Assembly (NCBI GenBank): GCA_048213135.1
Contig: PS015041.1
Location: forward strand, 133,995-172,639
Direction of reading: 5' to 3'
DNA: 38,645 bases
From: Reclinomonas americana ATCC 50394
Lineage: Eukaryota
The notes under the pieces were generated by a model. That model was not told the DNA's origin, made no database searches, and was given only the letters and a program-made list of their open reading frames with translations. Both the position numbers and the translations under genes were made by a program. Positions 1 through 33,322 of this stretch are shown here, piece after piece; within the stretch, counting starts at the first letter, position 1; each line of letters opens with the position of its first letter.

Positions 1-358
1 TCCCACTCACAATGTGTTGACCATTGCGAGTGATGGCGACAGAGTTCACACCCTCGGCGTGCCCCTCCAGCTGTTGCACTTGTTGGCCACTCGCCAGTGA
101 CCACACACGAACAGTCATGTCACCACTGCCGCTCACGATGTGCTGTCCATTGTGAGAGACGGCGACTGACCACACAGAGTATGTGTGGCCCTCCAGTCGC
201 TGCACCTCCTCGCCACTTGCTAGTGACCACACACGCACTGTCGTGTCCACACTGCCACTCACGATGTGCTGACCATTGGGGGTGATGGCGACGCACAGAA
301 CACGGTCTGCGTGTCCACGCACGCACTTGTTCGTGAAGGGAGGAGGAGGGTGGGTCAT
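1..358 (-). CDS. WD40-repeat protein, array copy D (3' end truncated by the window edge)
   Basis: Reading the minus strand from ATG 358 gives MTHPPPPFTNKCVRGHADRVLCVAITPNGQHIVSGSVDTTVRVWSLASGEEVQRLEGH..., with nearly 3 repeats before the edge. It has the same 42-aa repeat consensus as the neighbouring copies. It is not in the ORF track because its stop lies outside the window. Confidence 0.9.
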   Translation of the reverse strand, partial: MTHPPPPFTNKCVRGHADRVLCVAITPNGQHIVSGSVDTTVRVWSLASGEEVQRLEGHTYSVWSVAVSHNGQHIVSGSGDMTVRVWSLASGQQVQQLEGHAEGVNSVAITRNGQHIVSG

Positions 359-534
359 GGAATGTGAGCAATGAGTGCGTGCTCAAAGAGGAGGATTCAA
401 AAATAGAAAGATTGTGCTGGGACACAGAAGTTCTCATTTGATGACTGCGCCTACACTGCCTCCTCTCACAGGGCCTTGTCGCTGCTGAGCTTTGTTGCTG
501 CGATTCATTTTGTCTGGCAATAAAGCTCCTTTCT

Positions 535-1614
535 TCACAACCGGTCGGAGAAACATCGATATGCCACCACCTCTGCTTCCTCAACTATGAAACACCGCAA
601 CACCATCTCTGGCAGGCAGCGCGAATCGCCCTCCTCCTCTTGTTGCACCTGTTGCACGGCTTGCATGGCCGCCCGCGCACAATCGAGCTCCAGCCGAGCG
701 AGGCCGTATGGTGTACTCCACACTCGCACCGCCTTGGCATCACTTCCGCTGATAATGTGCTGACCATCGGGAGAGATGGCGAGGGACCGCACTCTAACAG
801 ATCTAGACTGTCCCTCCAAGCGTCGCACCTCTTCTCCACCCGCCAGCGACCAGATGCGCACGGTGTTGTCGTGGCCACCACTTATTACATGCTGACCATC
901 GGGTGTGACGACAACAGAGAGGACCGCCTTGGTGTGCCCCTCCAACCGTCTCAACTCTTCGCCGCCTGCCAGCGACCACACACGCACCGTCATGTCACGA
1001 CTTCCGCTCACAACGAGCTGCCCGTCGGGAGTCACTGCGACAGATGTAACTCCCCGAGCGTGTCCCTCCAAGCGTCGCACCTCCTCGCCAGTCGTCAGTG
1101 ACCACACTCGCGCTGTGCTGTCCCCGTTCCCACTCACAACGTGCTGACTGTCGGGAGTGACGGCGAGAGAATACACAAAGCCAGCGTGTCCCTCCAACCG
1201 GCGCACTTCTTCACCACTCGCCAGTGACCACACACGTATTGTTCCGTCCCAGCTCCCGCTTATAGTGTGCTGGCCATCGGGAGTGACGGCGACGGATCGC
1301 ACGTGAGATGCGTGTCCCACCAACCGCATCACTTCTTCGCCACTCGCCAGTGACAACACACGCACGATCATGTCAGCACTGCCACTCACCACATGCTGAC
1401 CATCGCGAGTGACAGCAACAGAGAGAACCACATTATTGTGCCTCTCAGATCGACGCACCTCCCGCCCACTTGCCAGTGACCACACACACACTGTCATGTC
1501 CTCACTGCCACTCACAATGGATTGGCCATCGGGAGTCATGGCGACAGAGTAAACATAATCTGTGTGCCCATGCAAACTCTTGTCGATGAAGATAGGAAGA
1601 GAGGCGTGCGACAT
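535..1614 (-). CDS. Intronless 7-repeat WD40 protein (359 aa) with conserved C-terminal tail, array copy C
   Basis: Lies within ORF 535..1887. The start is placed at MSHASLPIFIDK (1614) by alignment to the paralogues. It has seven GH...SVAVTPDGQHIVSGSxDxTVRVW repeats followed by ...RCLPEMVLRCFIVEEAEVVAYRCFSDRL*. Confidence 0.92.
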   Translation of the reverse strand: MSHASLPIFIDKSLHGHTDYVYSVAMTPDGQSIVSGSEDMTVCVWSLASGREVRRSERHNNVVLSVAVTRDGQHVVSGSADMIVRVLSLASGEEVMRLVGHASHVRSVAVTPDGQHTISGSWDGTIRVWSLASGEEVRRLEGHAGFVYSLAVTPDSQHVVSGNGDSTARVWSLTTGEEVRRLEGHARGVTSVAVTPDGQLVVSGSRDMTVRVWSLAGGEELRRLEGHTKAVLSVVVTPDGQHVISGGHDNTVRIWSLAGGEEVRRLEGQSRSVRVRSLAISPDGQHIISGSDAKAVRVWSTPYGLARLELDCARAAMQAVQQVQQEEEGDSRCLPEMVLRCFIVEEAEVVAYRCFSDRL

Positions 1615-1924
1615 GCTGGGGAAGGGAGGGAGAGAGGGAGAGAGGGAGAGAGAGTGAGAGAGAGAGAGAGTGTGAGAGAGAGAGAGTGAGAGGAAGAGGG
1701 GTGGATGGGGGCAGTGAATGCGGACGAAAACACGGGACGGGCCAAGATGTGTCGGTGTTGTCCTTTGAGATGGGACTGAAGTTCTCGGCTGGCGACGCTG
1801 CTTGCCCAACAGTGCCTGTGGGGTATAGAGCACACACCTCGCTGCGCATACACACAGACGATGCGGTTCATTATCAAAAAGAAGCAAAAGTTCATCCCCT
1901 GCATCCCTCCCAACTCATTCCACT

Positions 1925-3000
1925 TCACAGGCGGTCGGAGAAACATCGATATGCCACCACCTCCGCATCCTCAACTATGAAACACCGCAACACCATCTCA
2001 GGCAGGTAGCGCGATTCCACGTCCTCCTCCTCTTCTTGCATATCCCGGACGGCCCGCATGGCCGCCCGCGCAGCGTCGAGCTCTCGCCGAGCGAGACCGC
2101 ACGGCGTGCTCCACACGCGAATCATTCTGTCCTCACTTCCGCTGATAATGTGCTGTCCGTCGGGAGCGACGGCCACCGAGGTGACGATCTTGTCGTGCCC
2201 CTCCAGCCGCCGCACCTCGTCTCCACTGGCCAGCGACCAAACACGAACGGTCTTGTCGTAACTCCCACTCACCACGTGCTGACCGTCGGGAGTCACCGCG
2301 ACAGAACGCACCGCCATGGTGTGCCCCTCCAACCGTCGCACTTCCGCTCCACTCGCCAGTGACCACACACGCACCGTCATGTCACGACTTGCACTGATGA
2401 TGTGCTGCCCGTCGGGAGTGACGGCGACAGAGAACACCGCCGCAGTGTGCGCCTCCAACCGTCGCACCTCCTTGCCCGTCGCGAATGACCACACGCGCAC
2501 CATCTTATCGGAGCCATCACTCACAATCAGCTGCCCGTCGGGAGTGAAGACAACTGTCCACGGTGTGTCGGTGTGCCCCTGCAGCCGTCGCACCTCCTCT
2601 CCACTCGCCAGCGACCACACCCGCACCGTGTGGTCCCCACTCCCGCTAACAATGTGCTGACCGTCGGGAGAGATGGCGACGAGAAACACCCAGCCAGTGT
2701 GTCCCTCCAATCGCCTCACTTCCTCTCCGCTTGCACGCGACCACACTCGCACAGTTGCATCATCGCTGCCACTCACAATGTGCTCACAGTGGGAGTGATG
2801 GCGACAGAGCGCACTGTGTATTCGTGTCCCTCCAGTCGCCGCACCTCTTCTCCACTTGCCAGTGACCACACGCGCACGGTCTTGTCCTCGCTGCCACTCA
2901 CCATGTGCTGACCATTGGGGGTGATGGCGACAGACAAGACGAGGTCGGTGTGGCCACGCAGGCATTTGCAGAGGAAGAGAGGAGACGAGGAGAGAGACAT
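1925..3000 (-). pseudogene. WD40 array copy B with a 1-bp frameshift (pseudogene or sequence error)
   Basis: ORF 2773..3000 supplies the N-terminus (MSLSSSPLFLCKCLRGH...) and ORF 1925..3196 supplies the rest. One base is missing at ~2790/2791 (CCC-[G]AC-TGT-GAG-CAC, 'PDxEH'). Restoring it gives a 358-aa, 7-repeat protein. Confidence 0.85.
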
Positions 3001-3235
3001 GCTGCGGAAGGGAGAGAGGGAGGCGTGGATGGGGCAGTGTGTGCGTGTGAGGACGAGAATAGAAAGACGGAAGATTGTGTGTCCTCCAGCTCGACGTTCT
3101 CACTCGATGAATGCACATGCACCTGTTCTCACCAGCGTGGGTACTGAGAATGCATGCCTCTTCCCTAGGCGAAGCGCAGCGACCATACATTTGCACAAAG
3201 CTTATATCCTCTTCTTTCCTCTCCCTTCCTCTCCA

Positions 3236-4333
3236 TCACAACCGCATCTCGGGCGCGAAGCACCTGTAGGCCACCACCTCTGCCTCCTCGACCATGAAGC
3301 ACCGCAGCACCATCTCAGGAAGGCATCGCGAATCATCGCCGTCTTCTTGCATCTCCTGCACGGCCTGCATGGCTGATCGTGCACAGTTGAGCTCCTGCCG
3401 AGCGAGGCCGCACGGCGTGCTCCACACGCGCACCGTCCCGTCATCACTTCCGCTGATAATGTGCTGCCCGTCGGGAGTGACGGCGACAGACCTCACCTCC
3501 TTTGTGTGTCCCTCCAGTCGTCGCACCTCTTCTCCACCCGCCAGCGACCAAATGCGCACAGTGCAGTCGCGGCTGCCACTCACTGTGTATTGCCCATCGG
3601 GAGTGACGGCGACAGACTGCACCCATCCAGCGTGCCCCTCCATTCGCCTCACCTCTTCTCCACTCGCCAGTGACCACAGCCGCACTGTTGTATCTCTGCC
3701 TCCACTCACAACGTGCTGGCCATCGCGAGTCACCACGACAGAATACACCCATCCAACGTGTCCCTCCAGCCGTCGCACCTCCTCGCAAGTCGCCAGTGAC
3801 CACACTCGCACAGTGTTGTCAAAACTCCCACTCACCACAAACTGGCCACTGGGAGTGACGACAACAGAGTTCACAAAACTAGAGTGTCCCTTCAACCGCC
3901 TCACTTCTTCACCACTCGCCAGTGACCACACGCATATCGTTTTGTCCCAGCTCCCGCTGACGATGTGCTGGCCATCGGGAGTGACGGTGACGGAACGCGG
4001 GTCGTCTCTGGTGACGGAACGCACGTCGTCTCTGTGTCCCTCCATTCGTCTCACTTCTTCTCCATTCGCCAGTGACCACACTCGAATTGTTGCATCGACA
4101 CTGCCACTCACGATATGTCGACTGTCGGGAGTCACTGCGACAGAAAACACGCATCTAGTGTGCCCCGCAAATCGTTGCACCTCCTCACCACTCGCCAGTG
4201 ACCACACACGCACTGTCTTGTCTGCACCTCCACTGATAATATGCTGCCCGTCGGGAGTCACGGCGACTGACAACACATATTCTGTGTGTCCACGCAGGCA
4301 CTTGCAGATAAAGATAGGAGTGGTGCGGGACAT
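3236..4333 (-). CDS. Intronless 7-repeat WD40 protein (365 aa), array copy A
   Basis: Lies within ORF 3236..4492, with the start at MSRTTPIFICKCLRGH (4333). It has seven repeats, an in-frame 24-bp duplication at 3987-4034, and the tail ...RCLPEMVLRCFMVEEAEVVAYRCFAPEMRL*. Confidence 0.92.
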   Translation of the reverse strand: MSRTTPIFICKCLRGHTEYVLSVAVTPDGQHIISGGADKTVRVWSLASGEEVQRFAGHTRCVFSVAVTPDSRHIVSGSVDATIRVWSLANGEEVRRMEGHRDDVRSVTRDDPRSVTVTPDGQHIVSGSWDKTICVWSLASGEEVRRLKGHSSFVNSVVVTPSGQFVVSGSFDNTVRVWSLATCEEVRRLEGHVGWVYSVVVTRDGQHVVSGGRDTTVRLWSLASGEEVRRMEGHAGWVQSVAVTPDGQYTVSGSRDCTVRIWSLAGGEEVRRLEGHTKEVRSVAVTPDGQHIISGSDDGTVRVWSTPCGLARQELNCARSAMQAVQEMQEDGDDSRCLPEMVLRCFMVEEAEVVAYRCFAPEMRL

Positions 4334-4614
4334 GCTGGGGAAGGGAGAGGCAGAGAGAGGTAGAGAGAGAGAGAGAGAGGCGTCAGGCAGCTTGTGCGTG
4401 TGTACGACCGAGCTCGAGTGAAAGACGGATTTAATTGTGTGTCCTTCAAATGCGAGACTGTGTCCGTCGAAGTTCTCGCTTGATGACTGCACCTGTTCTC
4501 ACCAGCGTGAGGGGAATGAGAACGAGTACCTCTTCCCTCCACCGCTGAAGTTTCACAACACTCCATACATTTGCAGTTCAGCAATGGCAGACAATTTGCC
4601 TCCCTTTCTCTCCA

Positions 4615-4920
4615 TCACAACAGCATCTCGGGATCAGTTGAGCACCGGTAGGCCACCACCTCTGCCTCCTCGACCATGAAACAACGCAGCACTATCTCAG
4701 GCAGGCATCGCAATCGTTGTTCTCCTCTTGCGTATCCACGCCCTGCATCCGTGGTATAGCCAGCATCCTGGCGAACATGGTGTTCTCCCACACTCACACC
4801 GTTGTGCCCACCCCCACCGCTCCACCCCACCTCCTCACCACCGGATGCACCGCCGTCACTTGCACCCCCTCCGCAACACGCACACACTCGTGTCGACTTG
4901 CCAGAAACACACCACCGGCC
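4615..4920 (-). pseudogene. Decayed WD40 array remnant (copy E)
   Basis: The tail RCLPEIVLRCFMVEEAEVVAYRCSTDPEMLL* is intact. Just upstream, in another frame, MQGVDTQEENND aligns to MQAVQEMQEDGDD across a 1-bp deletion. Further upstream only scrambled ASGGEEV and VSGxxxT-like fragments remain. Confidence 0.7.
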
Positions 4921-5021
4921 GACTCTGCACCCACCACCTGACCTCCGACGGAAACAAGCTGCGCGTGGCGCCGTCACTCAACAAACACTGCTCACGCACG
5001 GTCTCTCCTCGCACCCGCCTC

Positions 5022-25562: not shown

Positions 25563-28500
25563 TCATGAAGAATGAGAGGACACGGCAGAGGACAGGCTCT
25601 CGGCTAAGCTGCGAACTGCACGCGACTCGTCGGCTTGTGCTAGCGATTGCAGTGTGCGCTGGGTGCGCTCTACTAGTGCCGGTGCGCGTTCCAGAGCATT
25701 GACGCACGTGCCAATGATGCTGCCGATGAGTTTTATGGCAGCTAGGCGGACCTGGAAATAGGAAAAGGTGAGTGGATGGCGTGTGCGAAGTGGGACAATG
25801 CAGGTGATGCTTGCCTCTGCTTGCGAGTCTTGTGTGCAGTCGACGGCGACGGTGAGAAGGGCGACAGCGGAGGCGTACGCGCTCTCCTTGACGCGCATGA
25901 TAAAGTGGAAGAGGGTCTGCACGAGAGGCGCAGAGTGAGACGCCACACAGAGACACGAGCGGGGTTAAGCCACGCAACGTTCAGTGCAGCGATGCGGAGT
26001 GGCACCGCTGTGTGTGCGTTTGCGCTCAGATCGACAAGCGTCGAGTGCAGGCGAGAGAAGAGTTTCAGTGCCGTGGCGAGGGACACGCGCGGGAGCAGTG
26101 CGGCGACCACTGGCAAGGCATACGATGACCACGGCGAGCTTGCCGACGTCGTGATGGAGGAGAGCAGTTCCTCCAGTAGCCACGATGAGGAGGATGCCGA
26201 TTGTGTGGGCACAGGGGTCTCGATTTCTGCAGCGCGAGAGTCTCAGGCGGGAAGGAAATAAAGGAAATATGTCGTGAAAAAGAACCTTCGATAACCGGGC
26301 GACGGCTCTCCTCCTCCCTCGGCGGCGGCGGCTCCACGACGACTGGATTCTTGAGGCTATCCAACTGGACAGCGGCAACCAACGACAGGCAGTCAATGGC
26401 ACCACGATGCAGATTCTCCACTTGCTCGCCTGCACAAGAGCGGGTGTTGGTCGAAGTGGCGCAGCAAAGGCACAAAAGTGCACATTATATCTTCTCGCAA
26501 CTGACACGCGGGAGGTCGAGCAGGCGGATCAGTGCATGCACGAGTCGACGCTGTGCAGTGGTCTCCTGCTCGCCTCCTTCTCCACATAGCGACTGATGAT
26601 AGTTGAGCTTGCAACACGCCACATACAGGTGCAACTTGACGAGTTCCAGATCGGATTCAGCGCTCGTCTCCTTTGTGTGTCATGCAAGGTGAGGACAAGA
26701 GAAGTATCGAGTCGCGAAACTTGTTGGGTTCACGCACCTCGATGAATTGCAAGACCTGATCGAGCACCAAGGCAGCTGGCAATCGGGCGAGACCCTCAGC
26801 AACCAGCTTCCGCACCTCGCGACCCTCGAGGATGTTGTGCATGCGCTCACGCAGACGCGCTGTACACCAGTTTAATGAGCAAGAGCACAGGCATTCAAGG
26901 TCCACGCACTTACCAGCAAGTCGCACAAGATCTTCCTCACACTGTGCCGCGAGCAGCGGGTCACACAGGGCGCTCACTGGCAACGACCGCAACACCAGCA
27001 ACGGACTGAGCCGAGCAAACGTGAACACACGATGAAAGTCGTCCTCGTCAAGAGCTCGGAGCGTCGCCACATAGGATTCGGTCACACTGCACACACTACG
27101 TCGTCAGACAGCGACGCAGTACTTCCCTTCCCCCATCTCCCAACCCCACGCACGGTTTCTCGCGCGCCATGTGGCCGACCAAGAGGGGGAGAACGTGCGG
27201 CAATGTGCGTGGGAACAGATGCGACGAGGCACTTGACAGGAAGGAGACGGCGGCGGGGTGGTTCGGGCGCGACAGAATCACTCGACACGTCTCCACCGCC
27301 ACCGCGTCCAGTGTCGCAGGATCCATCTGCACCACACTAGTCAGCCAAGGCGGCGGAGAAGGAAACGTGCCACAAGCTCATGAAGCGTGCCTTGCCAATC
27401 CACTGATCCGTGAGACGCACTACGCGCTCCAACAGTCGCTGCGACGGTGTGACTTCGGCAGCCACACTCGTTGCCGCCGACGGAGTCTTGCCAATCTGCG
27501 CTGGTGAGCGAGGTGCCTCCGTTCCACTGGAGACAGTGGAGACGGAGGCATCGGCGCTGTCAAGTAGGAATGAGTGACCCCGCAGCGACACAAAGGCAGT
27601 CCACAGAGCTGGATACCAACCTCAACACCTCCAGCAGTGTGCTGATCGCCTGATCCGTGTACGGATTGCTCGACATGATCGCCACAAACGCTCGCTCGGC
27701 CGCCGCACGTGTTCGCTCATCGCGCGCCGTGAGAGCGCGCGTCACTGGTGGCAGACTGCGTTCGGGTTCTACGGCACCGCAAAGAGGAAGGTGTGAGCTC
27801 CTGGAGGCACACACGCTTCTCTCGTCAACGATGATGATGGTCCACTCACCAACCACGGAAAACACCCGCGACGTGGCGGTGCGCGACGACAGGTCCTCGT
27901 CGCTCAGCCGGCGAATGAGTAGGTCACACAAGCGATTGCTGTGCGGCGGCAGAGTGAGGGGAGACGCGTGAGGAAGCGAGGGGGGAGAGTCCTTGCAATC
28001 AAACCTCAGCTCTGCATCGCCCTGCAGCACGTGCACGTTGAGGTCACACAGCCGTTCCACGACCGACAACGCGTTGCGGCGGACTTGCGGCTTGTCAGAG
28101 TCCAGGCGGGCAAACACCGCCGGCAGCACCAGGTCCTTGTCTCTGCGTGCGGCGAGTGAGACCAAGGCTGTGCATGAAAAAAGGCAACATGGCTGGCCAC
28201 GAAACAGGACGGCATACTCGGCGAGGAACACGGACGCCATGCGCGACGCCTTGTCCTTCTCATCCAGCGTCTCCAGCAACTGCTGTACCATGAACTCGCG
28301 TGCTGCGCGATCAAACGACGGCAGCGCGGCGTGCAGCAATTGCGAGGCCACATCCACCACTGCGTCGTTGCCGTGTGTCATCTAATGGGCGCGACGGGTG
28401 AGTGCATGGTGAACATCGACTGGCACACGACGTGCACACACCAAGCCAGGCAGCAGCTGCAGTAGAGCCTGTTGCATCTGACCATCCTCTTGCAGCATGG

Positions 28501-30206: not shown

Positions 30207-33200
30207 TTACTCGTCGACGACGATCTGGATGTTGACCGACTTGCGTTCGCTCTTCTTCGGGTACATGGCCCTGTGCTCGTCGACCCACGCGGACGGTCGG
30301 TAGACCCGGTCACTCGCGTGCGACATGAGCTGCACAAACATCTCCCACGAGTGCTTGACGGTTTCGCCAAACTGCGGGTGCGAGGCCAGCACGCTGAGGA
30401 CGACGTTGAGGTTCTGCGGGTCGATCACCACCAGGTGGTCGCGCAGCTCGCGGCGAATGGTCACGTCGGCCGAGCTCACCAGCAACGTCGCCACTTGGCG
30501 GCACGTGAAGCGGTGCCGCTCGAGGGCCTTGCTGATCTGCTGTTGGGCGTTGCGGGGAGCGCTGGCGCGCAGTGCACGTGCGATGCCCTCGGGCGTCACG
30601 TCGGTGGTGTGTGCGTTGAGGAGGTGCTGGGCGTGCACGCTGACGGCGCTGGAGAAGCGCTGGAAGGTGAGCGGGTGCATCGGGGCCACGCCGCGGTCTT
30701 CCATCTCGTGCCACACGGCCGCGTGCAGCTCCGTGGGAACCACCATGAGCACCTGTGAGAGAGGGAGGGAGGGGAAGGGGGGAAGTGGAAGGCAATAAGC
30801 AAGATGATCTTCCTCATCTTCCTCAGAAACTCACAGCTTCCTCCTCTCGGCTTTGCTCTCGCTCCTCTCTCTCTCATCTTCTTCTCCTTCTCTGCCCCAC
30901 TCACCCGCGACAGGTTCTCCGGGTCAGCCACACGGGCGCCAAAGAAGCGAGCGGCGGCGAGAACGGACTCGCGCAAGGCCGGGGTGACACCGTTGTCTTC
31001 GCCGTCATCTTCGTCCCACGGCAGGCGTGCGGGTGAGCCGTCGGGCGACGGCACATTGTCTGGCGAAGTGGCGGGTGACGGTGTTGGCGAGCGTGCCATC
31101 TGCAACTCGGCCGGAGTGGTCTCCTGCAACACGCCCTCTACCGCCATCCGCACGCCCACAGGCTCCTGCTGGAAGCGTACAATGCGATTGGCAGACGTGC
31201 CCGAGCGCTGCGAAGATGGTCCGTTCGAGTTGAGCCTGGGCAGCGCACCGCGCTCCGGCACCTTGACCACGAAATCGCGCGGTGTGGCCATGGTGGCCGT
31301 GGCCGCCGTGTACAGCTGATCCTCCCCGTCTTCGTCGCTGCCGGCGAGACCGAAATCGTCCTCTTCCTCTTCCTCTTCTTCCTTCTTCTTCTTCTCCTCC
31401 TTCTTCTCCTCCTCCTCCGTCGTCGACGTCGTTTGCGCTGGTGGTGGCGGCTGTTGCTCGTCCTCCTGGTCGGGGAACGGCAACTTCTCCTGCACCATCG
31501 GCGACTGCATTTCGCTCGTCGTGCCGGCCAGTGAGGCGGAAGCGGAAGCGTCCGAGCCGATCGGCGCAAACAAATATGCGGCGGCGGCGGCCGCGGCGGC
31601 CTGCAAATCCTCAATGGGCGGCAACGGAGGGCGGGACGGCGGTGCCGCGGCTTGCGGTGCTGGCACACTGACATCAACCGACGGCAGCGGCTCCGGCTGC
31701 ACCGCCGGCGTGAACATCATGTCGGACTCGGCCGGCGCGTCGGTAAAGGCGTTGCTGGAGGTCACCGAGCTCCGTCCATCACCGGCCTCCAGGGCCTCGG
31801 TAAACACACTGCTCGACGCGGCCGAACTCCGCCCGTCGCCGCCTCGCGCCTCCGTCTCGCTCATTGGCGAGCCGAGCTCCACTGCCGAGCCAAACTCCGA
31901 CACTTGCACCTCTTCCACTGCCTCGCTGGAGGCCGGCCGGTTCTCGTTGTCCATCACAATCCTTCTCGACGCTGATTCCACCACCGGCGCGGCCGCTGTT
32001 GCTGCTGCTGCTGCTGCTGTGGCATCGGCCTCTGGTTGCGCCGCCGGGATGGCGAGGAGAGGCACGGATGGAGGCGGTGGCGGCGGGCGAGGTCGTGTGG
32101 CGATGGAAGCGTGTGCCGAGTGCGGCGGGGGAGCAATAACAGCCTCCGCCGCCGCCTTCTCCTCCCCCGCCTTCGCTCCCGCTGGCGGGCCCCAATCTTC
32201 TCCCTCGGCACCCTCGTCCATGTCCAGGTGAACATCATACAAATCGACATCGGCATCTTCGCACGACTCAAAGTCCTCGGCCAGACTTCCCGTGAGGCTA
32301 TTGCCGCCGCCGCCACCCCTCGCAGCGGCAGCCTCGGCCACCACACCCGCCACCCGCGCATTCACGACAGCAGGCTCCACGGGCTCCGCCAACACACGTC
32401 GCAAGATCCAACACAAATCATCCGCGCTGATGAACTTCTCCTGCAACACACGCATGGTGGTGGCCACACGCTTGACCAGCGTCGCCGCCGGCCTCGGCGG
32501 CAACCGATTCAACACCGCCTCCAGCTCCTCATCGCCAATCATCGGCACGGGCGGCGGATGCTTGAACACCAACAGACACAGCGTCGCCTTGTGCCCATTC
32601 GCCGTCGACTGCATCCCTCCAATGACTGCTCCTCCGCCACTGCTATTGCTCATTGACGACGAGTTCGACATGAGCGACTGCGGAGACAATGGTCGCTGCT
32701 GCTGAGGAGGCGATGGAGCTCCCGCCAGCAACAGCTGCTTATGCAACACCTGTGCCATTTGTGGAGACATGGGCGACGATGCTCCTGCTCGTTGTGCCTG
32801 CACCATTGCTGCGAGCTCTTCTGCGTTCTCCACGACCATGCTGTGTCGTGAGCGCGTGGGCACCTGGAAGCCGAGGGCGGAGTCGTCGGCGAAGAAGGCA
32901 GAGGTGATGCTGCCTCGCGGGTTGCCTCCTCCTCCTGCTCCTCCATTGCCTGCTGCTTGTTGTTGGAGGTGTGCGTGAGCAGGCGAGGCTGCTCCCACAA
33001 AGGAGGCGCCTGTGAGGCCAGTGGGCGGAACGCGGTCGGCCTTGGTCGCCACTTGTCGAAGTCTGTCGTGACTCGACTGAGCAGAGAGAGAAGTGAGTGA
33101 GTGAGTGTGTGTGAAAGAGAGAGTGAGTGAGTGAGTGAGTGAGTGAGTGAGTGAGTGAGTGAGTGAGTGAGTGAGTGAGTGTGTGCGTGTGCGTGTGTGT

Positions 33201-33219
33201 GTGCGTGTGTGTGTGTGTG

Positions 33220-33253
<34 letters not shown>

Positions 33254-33322
33254 CAAGTGAATCATGCATGCATGCAGTGAGCATACCTCCACACAGCATG
33301 CTCGACAGCAACCTGCGCCCAT
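30207..33322 (-). CDS. 917-aa protein with an N-terminal MGxxCC acylation motif, long low-complexity regions and DUF4476-like domain(s); 3 exons
   Basis: Exons 33287-33322 (MGAGCCRACCVE), 30905-33076 and 30207-30752 are all phase 0 with GT-AG introns. KALERHRFTCRQVATLL...IDPQNLNVVLSVL and RVADPENLSRVL resemble the DUF4476 pattern F(S/T)CxQVxxLL...(I/V)DPEN. Confidence 0.75.
33093..33252. repeat. (GAGT)n and (GT)n microsatellites in intron 1 of the DUF4476-like gene
   Basis: Directly visible runs. Confidence 0.95.

What the first reader, a model, noticed from the sequence alone, without database searches (positions are those of the whole stretch)
1..4730. Tandem array of intronless WD40 genes with HET-E-like hypervariable top-face residues but no NACHT domain: candidate diversifying recognition system
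Seen in sequence: the ~24 repeats share a near-invariant 42-aa scaffold (SLASGEEVRRLEGHxxxVxSVAVTPDGQHIVSGSxDxTVRVW), and variation concentrates at six positions. These are the three residues after GH, the one after V (e.g. TDY-V-Y, ASH-V-R, AGF-V-Y, EYT-V-R, TGW-V-F, SSF-V-N, VGW-V-Y, TYS-V-W) and the two flanking D (SEDM, SWDG, SRDM, SYDK, SFDN, SVDA), with frequent W/Y/F/R. Established knowledge: these correspond to repeat positions 10-12, 14, 30 and 32, which are under diversifying selection in the Podospora HET-E/HNWD NLR WD40 repeats and form the ligand-binding face of the propeller. Each gene here is only a 7-blade propeller plus a ~55-aa tail. Inference: a birth-and-death family of stand-alone variable binders (immunity, allorecognition or substrate targeting) in a protist.
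Basis: partly seen in the sequence, partly recalled or inferred. Interest (0 to 1): 0.8.

Follow-up and report, generated by a model that had tools for sequence, protein, structure and literature searches.

The report
Tandem variable-face WD40 genes, jakobid-like protist
A probable jakobid protist carries a row of small genes that each encode a seven-bladed WD40 ring with a shared scaffold, a scrambled binding face and a previously undescribed helical tail, which looks like a lineage-specific family of binding proteins but is not shown to be an immune system.

Summary
On the minus strand of 1-4730 lie four intronless WD40 genes: A (cut by the window end), B, C (one frameshift) and D. There is also a 31-residue stump of a fifth copy. 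Each whole gene has a 12-residue closing strand, seven 42-residue blades and a 61-residue tail.

Variation is concentrated at six positions per blade (2.3-3.8 bits, against 1.46 or less elsewhere). These are the HET-E/HNWD high-dN/dS positions and include the general WD40 top-face hotspots. No NACHT domain is present.

- The family does not evolve like HET-E. Repeats are only 56-83% identical in DNA, do not cluster by gene, and the paralogues are old (scaffold dS 0.5-0.8).
- The scaffold is under purifying selection (omega about 0.18).
- The six sites change 1.4-5 times faster than scaffold synonymous sites. With their own synonymous rate, omega is below 1 because they are saturated. Diversifying selection is therefore likely but not proven.

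The tail matches no Pfam family. Among 1.84 billion proteins it recurs in only four, one of them a Reclinomonas americana EST. The nearest propellers are Gemmatales kinase-WD40 proteins.

Verdict: a new, lineage-specific variant of the known repetitive WD40 class with variable hotspots. What it recognises is unknown.

The parts
2..358 (-). Gene A, 5' part only. Start codon at 358, then a closing strand and blades 1, 2 and most of 3. It runs off the left end of the window.
   Evidence: (3 WD40 stretches, 104.4 bits).
535..1614 (-). Gene B, 359 aa. It has a 12-aa closing strand, 7 WD40 blades (blade 7 has a 2-aa insertion) and a 61-aa tail. The stop codon is at 535-537.
   Evidence: (7 stretches, 242.8 bits).
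538..717 (-). Tail of B: helix, acidic linker, then the helix carrying the RCLPEMVLRCF motif.
1626..1692 (-). (GA)n on the plus strand, which is a (CT)n tract on the coding strand, just upstream of the start codon of B. It ends in ...CCCCAGC ATG.
1925..3000 (-). Gene C. It has the same 7-blade plus tail plan, but one base is missing in blade 2 near 2790/2791, next to two substitutions in the conserved DGQ. This is either a recent pseudogene or an assembly error.
   Evidence: The scaffold of C still shows pN 0.12-0.15 against pS 0.48-0.49 when compared with the other copies.
3236..4333 (-). Gene D, 365 aa: closing strand, 7 WD40 blades and a 61-aa tail. The stop codon is at 3236-3238.
   Evidence: (7 stretches, 263.1 bits). 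AF2 gives seven blades with pLDDT above 90 for most of the propeller.
3239..3421 (-). Tail of D. It is predicted as a two-helix hairpin.
   Evidence: helices 307-331 and 337-363, pLDDT about 50-60; the tail alone with 7 sequences gives H4-26 and H31-61, pLDDT 78.7.
3986..4034 (-). In-frame 24-bp tandem duplication inside the variable d-a loop / strand a of blade 3 of D (RDDVRSVT / RDDPRSVT).
   Evidence: (period 24, 2.0 copies, 92% matches).
4345..4381 (-). CT-rich tract just upstream of the start codon of D.
4618..4710 (-). Stump of a fifth copy. Only the last 31 residues of the tail remain (84% identical to D). It is followed by a spacer homologous to the D-to-C spacer. No WD40 similarity lies upstream.
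   Evidence: Pfam finds nothing in the ORF 4615-4977.

Best explanation
A unit of about 1.3 kb (gene plus spacer) has been duplicated in tandem. It encodes a lineage-specific, probably jakobid, family of small stand-alone binding proteins. Each protein is a seven-bladed WD40 ring built from one 42-residue scaffold, followed by a 61-residue C-terminal helical hairpin that belongs to no described family.

The scaffold is kept by purifying selection. Six loop positions per blade lie on the face that WD40 proteins use to hold ligands. These positions differ almost completely between blades and between paralogues, and they have changed faster than the silent sites of the scaffold.

The most likely reading is that each paralogue presents its own ligand surface. 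The shared tail would then connect all of them to a common partner or to each other. The family turns over by duplication and decay (birth and death), not by HET-E-like homogenisation of repeats.

Shown: the architecture, where the variation lies, purifying selection on the scaffold, excess change at the six sites relative to scaffold silent sites, and transcription of a relative in Reclinomonas.

Inferred: that the proteins bind ligands, that selection favours new surfaces, what the tail does, and what is recognised.
For: Architecture. By sequence the nearest solved structure is 2ymu (380 bits). By fold it is PkwA 5yzv (TM 0.97 normalised to the target).

Location of variation: (six columns at 2.3-3.8 bits, the rest at 1.46 or less).

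Positions are top-face contacts: PMC3419727, PMC1805685 and PMC12222747 (passages).

Purifying selection on the scaffold: omega 0.16-0.20. Equal omega for both site classes is rejected (LRT 365).

Faster change at the six sites than at silent scaffold sites:
- In 6 blade pairs chosen from a tree built without those sites, dN(hv) is 0.86 and dS(scaffold) is 0.50. The raw pN/pS ratio is 1.40, with a bootstrap 95% interval of 1.02-1.91.
- In the ML class model with a shared silent rate, beta(hv) is 1.42 (LRT 5.1) on the codon tree and 5.1 (LRT 67.6) on the scaffold tree.
- Four-fold third positions mismatch in 285 of 392 comparisons (0.73, the saturation level) inside the six codons, against 1978 of 4572 (0.43) in scaffold codons. 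The per-column Mann-Whitney test gives p = 0.001.
- Two Gemmatales relatives show no such contrast: 0.13 against 0.11, and 0.43 against 0.39.

The sites are not simply unconstrained: 0 of 142 residues are Pro (9.5 expected), V, I, L, C and Q are depleted, and T, D, K, Y, W, N, M and F are enriched.

Paralogues share only 6-8 of 42 variable residues.

Birth and death: the spacers are homologous, and there is a frameshifted C and a tail stump.

Lineage-specific tail: no Pfam match, no word-search hit, and 4 hits among 1,835,955,588 proteins. One of these is a Reclinomonas americana EST product that is 68-77% identical to the C-termini of B-D.
Against: - With their own silent rate, the six sites give omega 0.47 (LRT against 1 = 6.7) or 0.15. 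Both rates are saturated there, so a classical dN/dS above 1 is not shown.
- Six of 24 scaffold columns are as scrambled at four-fold sites as the variable codons, and Val GTG is a preferred codon. Scaffold silent sites may therefore underestimate the neutral rate.
- The paralogues are old (scaffold dS 0.51-0.81). The differences could be ancient and now fixed.
- Tree support is weak except for D3-B3 (91%).
- There are no orthologue, population, expression or ligand data for these genes.
- The tail is predicted with only moderate confidence, and its fold (a helical hairpin) is uninformative. Foldseek found no match at E <= 0.001.
Confidence: 0.55

Rival explanations
1. These are ordinary old paralogues. 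A young repetitive propeller was duplicated a few times long ago, and each copy then settled on its own fixed partner. The six positions differ simply because they are saturated contact residues, as in any WD40 protein. Under this reading there is no continuing diversifying selection and no recognition repertoire.
For: - Scaffold dS between genes is 0.51-0.81.
- Repeats are 56-83% identical in DNA, and blades pair by position between genes.
- Omega at the six sites is below 1 when their own silent rate is used.
- Some scaffold silent columns are also saturated.
- Variable hotspots on a conserved scaffold are described as a general trait of repetitive WD40 proteins (PMC5587647, passage).
Against: - Non-synonymous change at the six sites exceeds scaffold silent change in every comparison made.
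- Even the best-supported positional pairs share only 8 of 36 variable residues.
- A recent in-frame 24-bp duplication sits in a variable loop.
- The array shows recent decay in the form of a frameshift and a stump.
Confidence: 0.3
2. The family evolves in a HET-E-like way, by concerted evolution. Gene conversion keeps homogenising the scaffold among blades and genes, while selection protects old diversity at the six codons. The variable codons would then look older than the scaffold.
For: - Variable codons are saturated even at four-fold third positions, while scaffold codons are not (0.73 against 0.43).
- A scaffold block (unit positions 20-25) keeps column-specific non-preferred codons. CCC is used in 23 of 23 repeats although only 17% of Pro codons in other ORFs are CCC. 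ACT is used in 21 of 24 although only 21% of Thr codons are ACT.
- The fitted silent rate at the six sites is 3-21 times that of the scaffold.
Against: - Repeats do not cluster by gene, and none exceeds 83% DNA identity.
- HNWD repeats are 80-100% identical (PMC12222747).
- Overall scaffold silent divergence is substantial (dS about 0.9 between repeats).
Confidence: 0.1
3. These are substrate receptors of a ubiquitin ligase. Under this reading the tail is a degenerate F-box- or SOCS/BC-box-like adaptor motif (LPEMVLRCF), and the variable faces select different substrates.
For: The only support is a resemblance recalled from memory between LPEMVLRCF and the start of F-box or BC-box motifs. WD40 plus a short adaptor box is a common design.
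Against: - No F-box, SOCS-box or any other Pfam family matches the three tails, even at E <= 10.
- The box would be at the C-terminus and too short for an F-box.
- The fold search of the tail gave only generic helical hairpins with E above 1.
Confidence: 0.05

Closest known systems
WD40 sensor domain of Podospora HNWD NLRs (HET-E, HET-D, HET-R)
   Same: Both have 42-residue repeats with a shared scaffold. Variation is focused on the same loop positions: HNWD 10, 11, 12, 14, 30 and 32 correspond to 15, 16, 17, 19, 35 and 37 here, and codons 7, 9, 25 and 27 correspond to 17, 19, 35 and 37. In both cases the surface is the presumed ligand face.
   Different: This family has no NACHT and no HET domain. 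It has exactly 7 blades rather than variable numbers. Repeats are 62-67% identical in protein and 56-83% in DNA, against 80-100% in HNWD. They do not cluster by gene, so concerted evolution is not evident. HNWD position 39 is not variable here. This family also carries a C-terminal tail.
Highly or moderately repetitive WD40 proteins of bacteria, fungi and protists (Hu et al. 2017), e.g. Nostoc 2ymu, Thermomonospora PkwA 5yzv and Gemmatales kinase-WD40 proteins
   Same: These are the closest by sequence and fold. 2ymu scores 380 bits. 5yzv has TM 0.97 normalised to the target. The Gemmatales loci L024-L027 are 52-57% identical to the propeller of B. The scaffold consensus is very similar (...G.EVRR..GH...V.SVAVTPDG...VSGS.D.TVR.W), and the same positions vary in the consensus of five Gemmatales-type metagenome proteins. 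The DHSW tetrad residues are conserved. Variable hotspots on a conserved scaffold were already noted for this class (PMC5587647).
   Different: The two Gemmatales relatives I read are the C-terminal parts of 863-1203-aa Ser/Thr kinase plus membrane-segment proteins. This family is stand-alone, eukaryotic and tandemly arrayed, and it carries a private tail. By my own calculation its internal identity (0.62-0.67) falls in the moderately repetitive band (0.4-0.7) rather than the highly repetitive one.
Stand-alone seven-blade WD40 adaptors such as WDR5
   Same: Both are single 7-blade propellers of about 300 residues that work by binding partners on the top face. WDR5 entries match at about 153 bits and TM 0.9.
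   Different: WDR5-type proteins have dissimilar blades and conserved one-to-one orthologues across eukaryotes. This family has near-uniform blades, multiple tandem paralogues and a tail found in only four other proteins.

Membership tests
WD40 repeat beta-propeller (Pfam PF00400) | Several WD40 repeats scoring above the curated cut-off. | tested here: met
   B has 7 stretches at 242.8 bits and D has 7 stretches at 263.1 bits (cut-off 27). A has 3 stretches. The long ORF of C has 6.
WD40 repeat beta-propeller (Pfam PF00400) | A closed seven-bladed propeller fold with the DHSW tetrad residues. | tested here: met
   AF2 model with seven four-stranded blades and pLDDT above 90 over most of the propeller. 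Foldseek TM is 0.97 to 5yzv. H14, S32, D36 and W42 are nearly invariant.
HNWD / HET-E-type fungal NLR | A central NACHT (NOD) domain and an N-terminal effector (HET) domain. | tested here: not met
   Only 12 residues precede blade 1. The proteins are 359-365 aa and are fully accounted for by blades plus tail. Spacers are 176-310 bp. All Pfam hits shown (the best 25 of 50 for B and D, of 55 for C) are propeller families.
HNWD / HET-E-type fungal NLR | High internal conservation of repeats (80-100%) maintained by concerted evolution. | tested here: not met
   DNA identity between repeats is 56-83% and protein identity is 62-67%. Repeats pair by blade position across genes, not by gene.
HNWD / HET-E-type fungal NLR | Hypervariable positions 10, 11, 12, 14, 30, 32 (and 39) on the binding face. 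| tested here: met
   The six equivalent columns are the only ones above 2.2 bits. The equivalent of position 39 (unit position 2) has 0.57 bits. The numbering comes from PMC12222747.
HNWD / HET-E-type fungal NLR | dN/dS above 1 at those positions. | tested here: inconclusive
   The ratio is 1.4-5.1 against scaffold silent change. It is 0.15-0.47 with the sites' own, saturated, silent rate.
HNWD / HET-E-type fungal NLR | Repeat-number and allele polymorphism between isolates. | not testable with these tools
   No genome is held and no sequencing run was listed.
Highly-Repetitive WD40 class of Hu et al. 2017 | Internal repeat identity of at least 0.7 (0.4-0.7 counts as moderately repetitive). 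| tested here: not met
   Mean internal identity is 0.67 (D), 0.66 (C) and 0.62 (B) by my own pairwise count. This falls in the moderately repetitive band. The cut-offs come from PMC5587647, and their exact method was not reproduced.
F-box/WD40 or SOCS-box/WD40 ligase receptors | A recognisable F-box or SOCS box. | tested here: not met
   The tails of B, C and D were scanned alone against Pfam at E <= 10. Only two sub-threshold chance rows appeared (DUF1749 at E 0.19 and SCAB_CC at E 0.047).
PkwA-like bacterial Ser/Thr kinase-WD40 proteins | An N-terminal protein kinase domain fused to the propeller. | tested here: not met
   The Gemmatales relatives sit at the C-terminus of 863-aa and 1203-aa ORFs. 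I recognised kinase motifs in them by eye and ran no Pfam scan. The window genes have no room for such a domain.

The most novel reading that the evidence does not exclude
Jakobids may have a non-NLR recognition repertoire made of stand-alone WD40 rings. Their ligand faces would be diversified under selection. Their private helical-hairpin tail would couple every variant to one shared effector, or pair the variants into homo- and heterodimers, multiplying specificities. The scaffold may have been captured from a planctomycete (Gemmatales-type) kinase-WD40 gene taken up from bacterial prey. This would be an independent invention of the HET-E logic without a NOD domain.
Probability: 0.12. Interest if true: 0.8.

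Novelty: new variant of a known kind. Interest (0 to 1): 0.5.

Why it matters
Repetitive WD40 domains with variable contact residues are known as sensor modules of fungal NLRs and as parts of large bacterial signalling proteins. This family uses the same design as a free-standing, tandemly duplicated gene family. It occurs in a deep-branching, poorly studied eukaryotic lineage and carries a tail domain with no described relatives.

If the faces are truly under diversifying selection, variable-propeller recognition does not need a NOD domain. Jakobids, which graze on bacteria, would then gain a candidate recognition system.

Even if the function is ordinary, the family offers two things:
- a clean natural series of one scaffold carrying many surfaces, which is useful for binder engineering;
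- a marker (the tail) for tracing the family in Discoba.

Tried and rejected
- Whole-genome search: no genome is held for this window.
- Sequencing runs: none was listed, and no RNA holder was listed. I therefore had no read support for the frameshift, for expression or for alleles.
- Whole-protein word search: 2011 hits, all generic WD40 proteins with at most 62% identity. No family member of 201-641 aa appeared.
- Tail region word search: none of 5 candidates scored.
- Tail profile in JGI metagenome contigs: none of 594 pattern matches was confirmed. In viral contigs, none of 47 was confirmed.
- P0006 in metagenome contigs: none of 52 confirmed. In species genomes: one unrelated hit.
- Identifying the organism from neighbouring genes:
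  - 15 large ORFs gave no Pfam match above cut-off.
  - The 908-aa ORF has one weak hit covering 2% of it.
  - There were no Rfam families and no tRNAs.
- All-against-all Nei-Gojobori dN/dS at the six sites is unusable because both classes are saturated there (pS 0.75, pN 0.64).
- Fold search of the tail: no match at E <= 0.001.
- F-box / SOCS-box idea: not supported.
- Tail self-association by complex prediction: the job was never accepted because the queue was full at each try. The question is untested.
It rests on published equivalences.
- Literature searches:
  - For a described jakobid or Reclinomonas WD40 family, searches returned 5 and 6 papers. I saw titles and abstract starts only, and none is about such a family.
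  - One search returned only fungal and animal NLR work.
  - Nothing in print on this family was found in these searches.
  - I did not open supplements of PMC5587647, which list the highly repetitive WD40 proteins including protist ones. They might name related proteins.

Full report
**What is there.**
The minus strand of 1-4730 carries a tandem array.
- Gene A (2-358) starts at 358 and leaves the window after 2.8 repeats.
- Gene B (535-1614) encodes 359 aa.
- Gene C (1925-3000) has the same plan but lacks one base near 2790/2791 in blade 2. Two substitutions in the conserved DGQ lie next to the gap.
- Gene D (3236-4333) encodes 365 aa.
- At 4618-4710 only the last 31 residues of a fifth tail survive, 84% identical to D.

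The four spacers align with each other (57% mean column identity). The spacers before D, C and B end in a CT-rich tract followed by AGC just before ATG; the B-to-A spacer lacks this tract. The duplicated unit is therefore gene plus spacer, about 1.3 kb.

No other family member lies in the remaining 34 kb. The window is a draft scaffold with seven N gaps.

**Architecture.**
Pfam WD40 matches seven stretches in B and D. Each full protein has three parts:
- 12 residues that supply the closing strand;
- seven 42-residue units (SLASGEEVRRLEGHxxxVxSVAVTPDGQHIVSGSxDxTVRVW);
- a 61-residue tail.

AF2 on D with three relatives gives seven blades, most above pLDDT 90 (mean 84.3, pTM 0.80).

There is no room for a NACHT or any other N-terminal domain. 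At most 52 low-complexity codons are open upstream of D, and the spacers are 176-310 bp.

I counted 23 whole repeats and one partial repeat.

**Where the variation lies.**
Column entropies are 2.27-3.77 bits at unit positions 15, 16, 17, 19, 35 and 37. They are at or below 1.46 everywhere else.

Within a protein, blades are 72-78% identical at scaffold positions and 6-15% identical at the six positions.

The motif V-x-S-V places position 19 at R1, 17 at R1-2 and 35 at D-1. These are the three general top-face hotspots of WD40 proteins (PMC3419727, passages).

The Podospora work names two sets of sites:
- codons 7, 9, 25 and 27 as selected, flanking the purified codons 8 and 26 (PMC1805685, passages);
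- in a later numbering, positions 10, 11, 12, 14, 30, 32 and 39 (PMC12222747, passage).

With offsets of 10 and 5 these correspond to positions 17, 19, 35, 37 and 15, 16, 17, 19, 35, 37 here. The equivalent of 39 is conserved here.

These positions also vary in repetitive WD40 proteins in general (PMC5587647, passage). They vary too in the consensus of five Gemmatales-type metagenome proteins.

**How the family evolves: not like HET-E.**
- Repeats are 56-83% identical in DNA. HNWD repeats are 80-100% identical and are homogenised within and between genes.
- A tree of scaffold nucleotides, with the six codons removed, shows no clustering by gene. It pairs blades by position between genes: D3-B3 at 91% bootstrap, D5-B5 at 76, C1-A1 at 60, D7-B7 at 52 and D6-B6 at 49. 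Other nodes are weak.
- Collinear gene comparisons give scaffold dS of 0.51-0.81 and scaffold dN of 0.13-0.22.

A seven-blade gene was therefore duplicated several times, not recently, and the copies diverged. One frameshifted copy still shows purifying selection over its history (pN 0.12-0.15 against pS 0.48-0.49). Together with the terminal stump, this fits birth and death.

**Is there diversifying selection?**

*All-against-all counts.* Nei-Gojobori counts are saturated at the six sites (pN 0.64, pS 0.75).

*Class-level codon likelihood model of my own.* The model gives the following.
- Scaffold omega is 0.18-0.20.
- Equal omega in both classes is rejected (LRT 365).
- With a silent rate shared with the scaffold, the non-synonymous rate at the six sites is 1.42 (LRT 5.1 against 1) on the all-site codon tree, and 5.1 (LRT 67.6) on the scaffold-only tree.
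- If the six sites get their own silent rate, that rate rises to 3-21 times the scaffold's, and omega falls to 0.47 or 0.15.

*Six positional blade pairs.* These pairs were chosen without using the six sites. dN at the six sites is 0.86 against scaffold dS of 0.50. The raw ratio is 1.40, with a bootstrap 95% interval of 1.02-1.91, and 2.1% of replicates are at or below 1. Only 8 of 36 variable residues are shared.

*Model-free view: four-fold third positions.*
- They mismatch in 285 of 392 comparisons (0.73; saturation is 0.74) inside the six codons.
- They mismatch in 1978 of 4572 comparisons (0.43; saturation is 0.72) in scaffold codons.
- The per-column test gives p = 0.001.
- The contrast is absent in two Gemmatales relatives: 2/15 against 37/331, and 12/28 against 159/409.

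*Results against the selection reading.*
- Six of 24 scaffold columns are as scrambled as the variable ones.
- GTG is the preferred Val codon (70% in other ORFs of the window), so part of the scaffold's silent conservation may be constraint.
- On the other hand, the block TCT GTC GCC GTC ACT CCC keeps non-preferred codons (CCC in 23 of 23 repeats, ACT in 21 of 24). This speaks for shared ancestry or homogenisation rather than codon bias.

*Constraint at the six sites.* They are not free of constraint. None of 142 residues is Pro (9.5 expected), aliphatic residues are depleted, and T, D, K, Y, W, N, M and F are enriched.

*My reading.* Accelerated, selected turnover of contact residues is the most likely cause. 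Ancient fixed differences, or scaffold homogenisation, are not excluded.

**The tail and the organism.**
*No described relatives.* The tail matches no Pfam family even at E <= 10, and a word search of 5.8 billion proteins found nothing.

*Four hits in the profile search.* A profile of the four tails, searched against 1,835,955,588 representative proteins, found four hits.
- P0122 (103.7 bits) is the product of a Reclinomonas americana EST in EukProt. It carries the last blade plus the tail and is 68-77% identical to the C-termini of B-D, within the range seen between the paralogues themselves. Its contact residues are different.
- P0123 and P0124 come from unnamed assemblies. They align over their full length to D at 24-28% identity and carry the same tail on non-repetitive propellers.
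- P0125 is a 147-aa fragment.

*What this implies.* The propeller-plus-tail plan is therefore older than the repetitive subfamily. A relative is transcribed in a jakobid. The intronless, tightly packed genes fit what is reported for the jakobid Andalucia godoyi (PMC7050145, passages). I cannot say which jakobid the window comes from.

*Predicted fold.* With seven sequences, the tail alone folds as a two-helix hairpin (pLDDT 78.7, pTM 0.60). In the full-length model it is of low confidence. Foldseek finds only generic hairpins such as Rop and designed dimers, with E above 1. Any role in pairing or docking is conjecture, and the dimer prediction could not be run.

**Closest relatives of the propeller.**
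- By sequence, the best solved structure is the highly repetitive Nostoc protein 2ymu (380 bits). Designs derived from it and PkwA 5yzv come next. By fold, 5yzv is first.
- Among 5.8 billion proteins, the most similar (50-62% identity) are metagenome proteins with the repeat LATGKEVRRFTGHxxxVxSVAVTPDGKYVVSGSxDxTVRLW.
- A pattern scan places this type in Gemmatales (Planctomycetota), loci L024-L027. These are 52-57% identical to the propeller of B; most other bacteria scored 35-50%, and one Planctomycetota MAG (L030) reached 52% (only the B rows were within the printed part).
- The two Gemmatales loci I read are the C-terminal propellers of 863-aa and 1203-aa ORFs. I recognised N-terminal kinase motifs in them by eye.
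- The shared EVRR and SVAVTPDG strings hint at a specific link, possibly gene transfer to a bacterivore. The identity gradient is continuous, however, and I built no blade phylogeny, so this is a lead only.

**Verdict.**
The sequence observation is right. The structural equivalence to the HET-E variable positions is right, but those positions are the generic WD40 contact sites.

The HET-E-like evolutionary machinery is absent, and an immune or allorecognition role is unsupported.

What is new is a free-standing, tandemly duplicated, probably jakobid-specific family that combines a moderately repetitive propeller, almost fully divergent ligand faces and a private helical tail. I rate it a new variant of a known kind, of moderate interest.

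Noticed in passing
window 3986-4034 (-): An in-frame 24-bp tandem duplication (92% matches) doubles the variable loop and start of strand a of blade 3 in gene D (RDDVRSVT / RDDPRSVT). Blade 7 of gene B has a 2-residue insertion at the same place. Length change thus also targets the variable loop.
   Followed up: partly
window ~2790/2791 (-), gene C blade 2: A single missing base lies next to two substitutions in the otherwise conserved DGQ. About 290 codons downstream stay open and conserved, so this is either a very recent pseudogene or a draft-assembly error.
   Followed up: partly
window 4615-4977 (-): A tail stump (31 residues) is preceded by G-rich sequence with no WD40 similarity and followed by a normal spacer. 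It marks the upstream edge of the array and suggests that the duplication breakpoint lies inside the tail.
   Followed up: partly
window 1626-1692 and 4345-4381; spacers 359-537, 1615-1927, 3001-3238, 4334-4617: CT-rich tracts on the coding strand end in CCCCAGC (before B and D) or AGC (before C) immediately before the start codon. Upstream boxes (GAGAAC.TC, CACGCAC..CTGCC) are conserved in all four spacers. These are candidate promoter, 5'UTR or splice-acceptor-like signals.
   Followed up: no
loci L024 (1319-4930) and L025 (2348-4939), Gemmatales MAGs: The nearest propeller relatives are the C-terminal domains of large proteins with a Ser/Thr-kinase-like N-terminus, a membrane segment and repeated Ig-like modules. 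Their repeats share the EVRR...SVAVTPDG scaffold strings with the window genes. This is a possible donor lineage for gene transfer into a bacterivorous protist.
   Followed up: partly
unit positions 20-25 of all repeats in window 1-4333: The block TCT GTC GCC GTC ACT CCC keeps column-specific, non-preferred synonymous codons (CCC 23/23, ACT 21/24, GTC 19/24). Gly and Arg codons elsewhere in the scaffold are fully scrambled. Silent-site rates are very uneven along the unit.
   Followed up: partly
proteins P0123 (394 aa) and P0124 (381 aa), unnamed Logan assemblies: These are non-repetitive seven-blade-like propellers that end in the same tail (VLRCF core). They show that the tail-bearing family is wider and older than the repetitive subfamily.
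   Followed up: partly
window 4730-38645: This region has seven N gaps (20-751 bases). None of 15 large ORFs has a Pfam match above cut-off, and there is only a weak HEAT signal at 27560-28381. The 908-aa ATG ORF at 30596-33322 has one weak hit among 5.8 billion proteins. There are no tRNAs and no Rfam matches. The genome is very poorly represented in public protein sets.
   Followed up: partly
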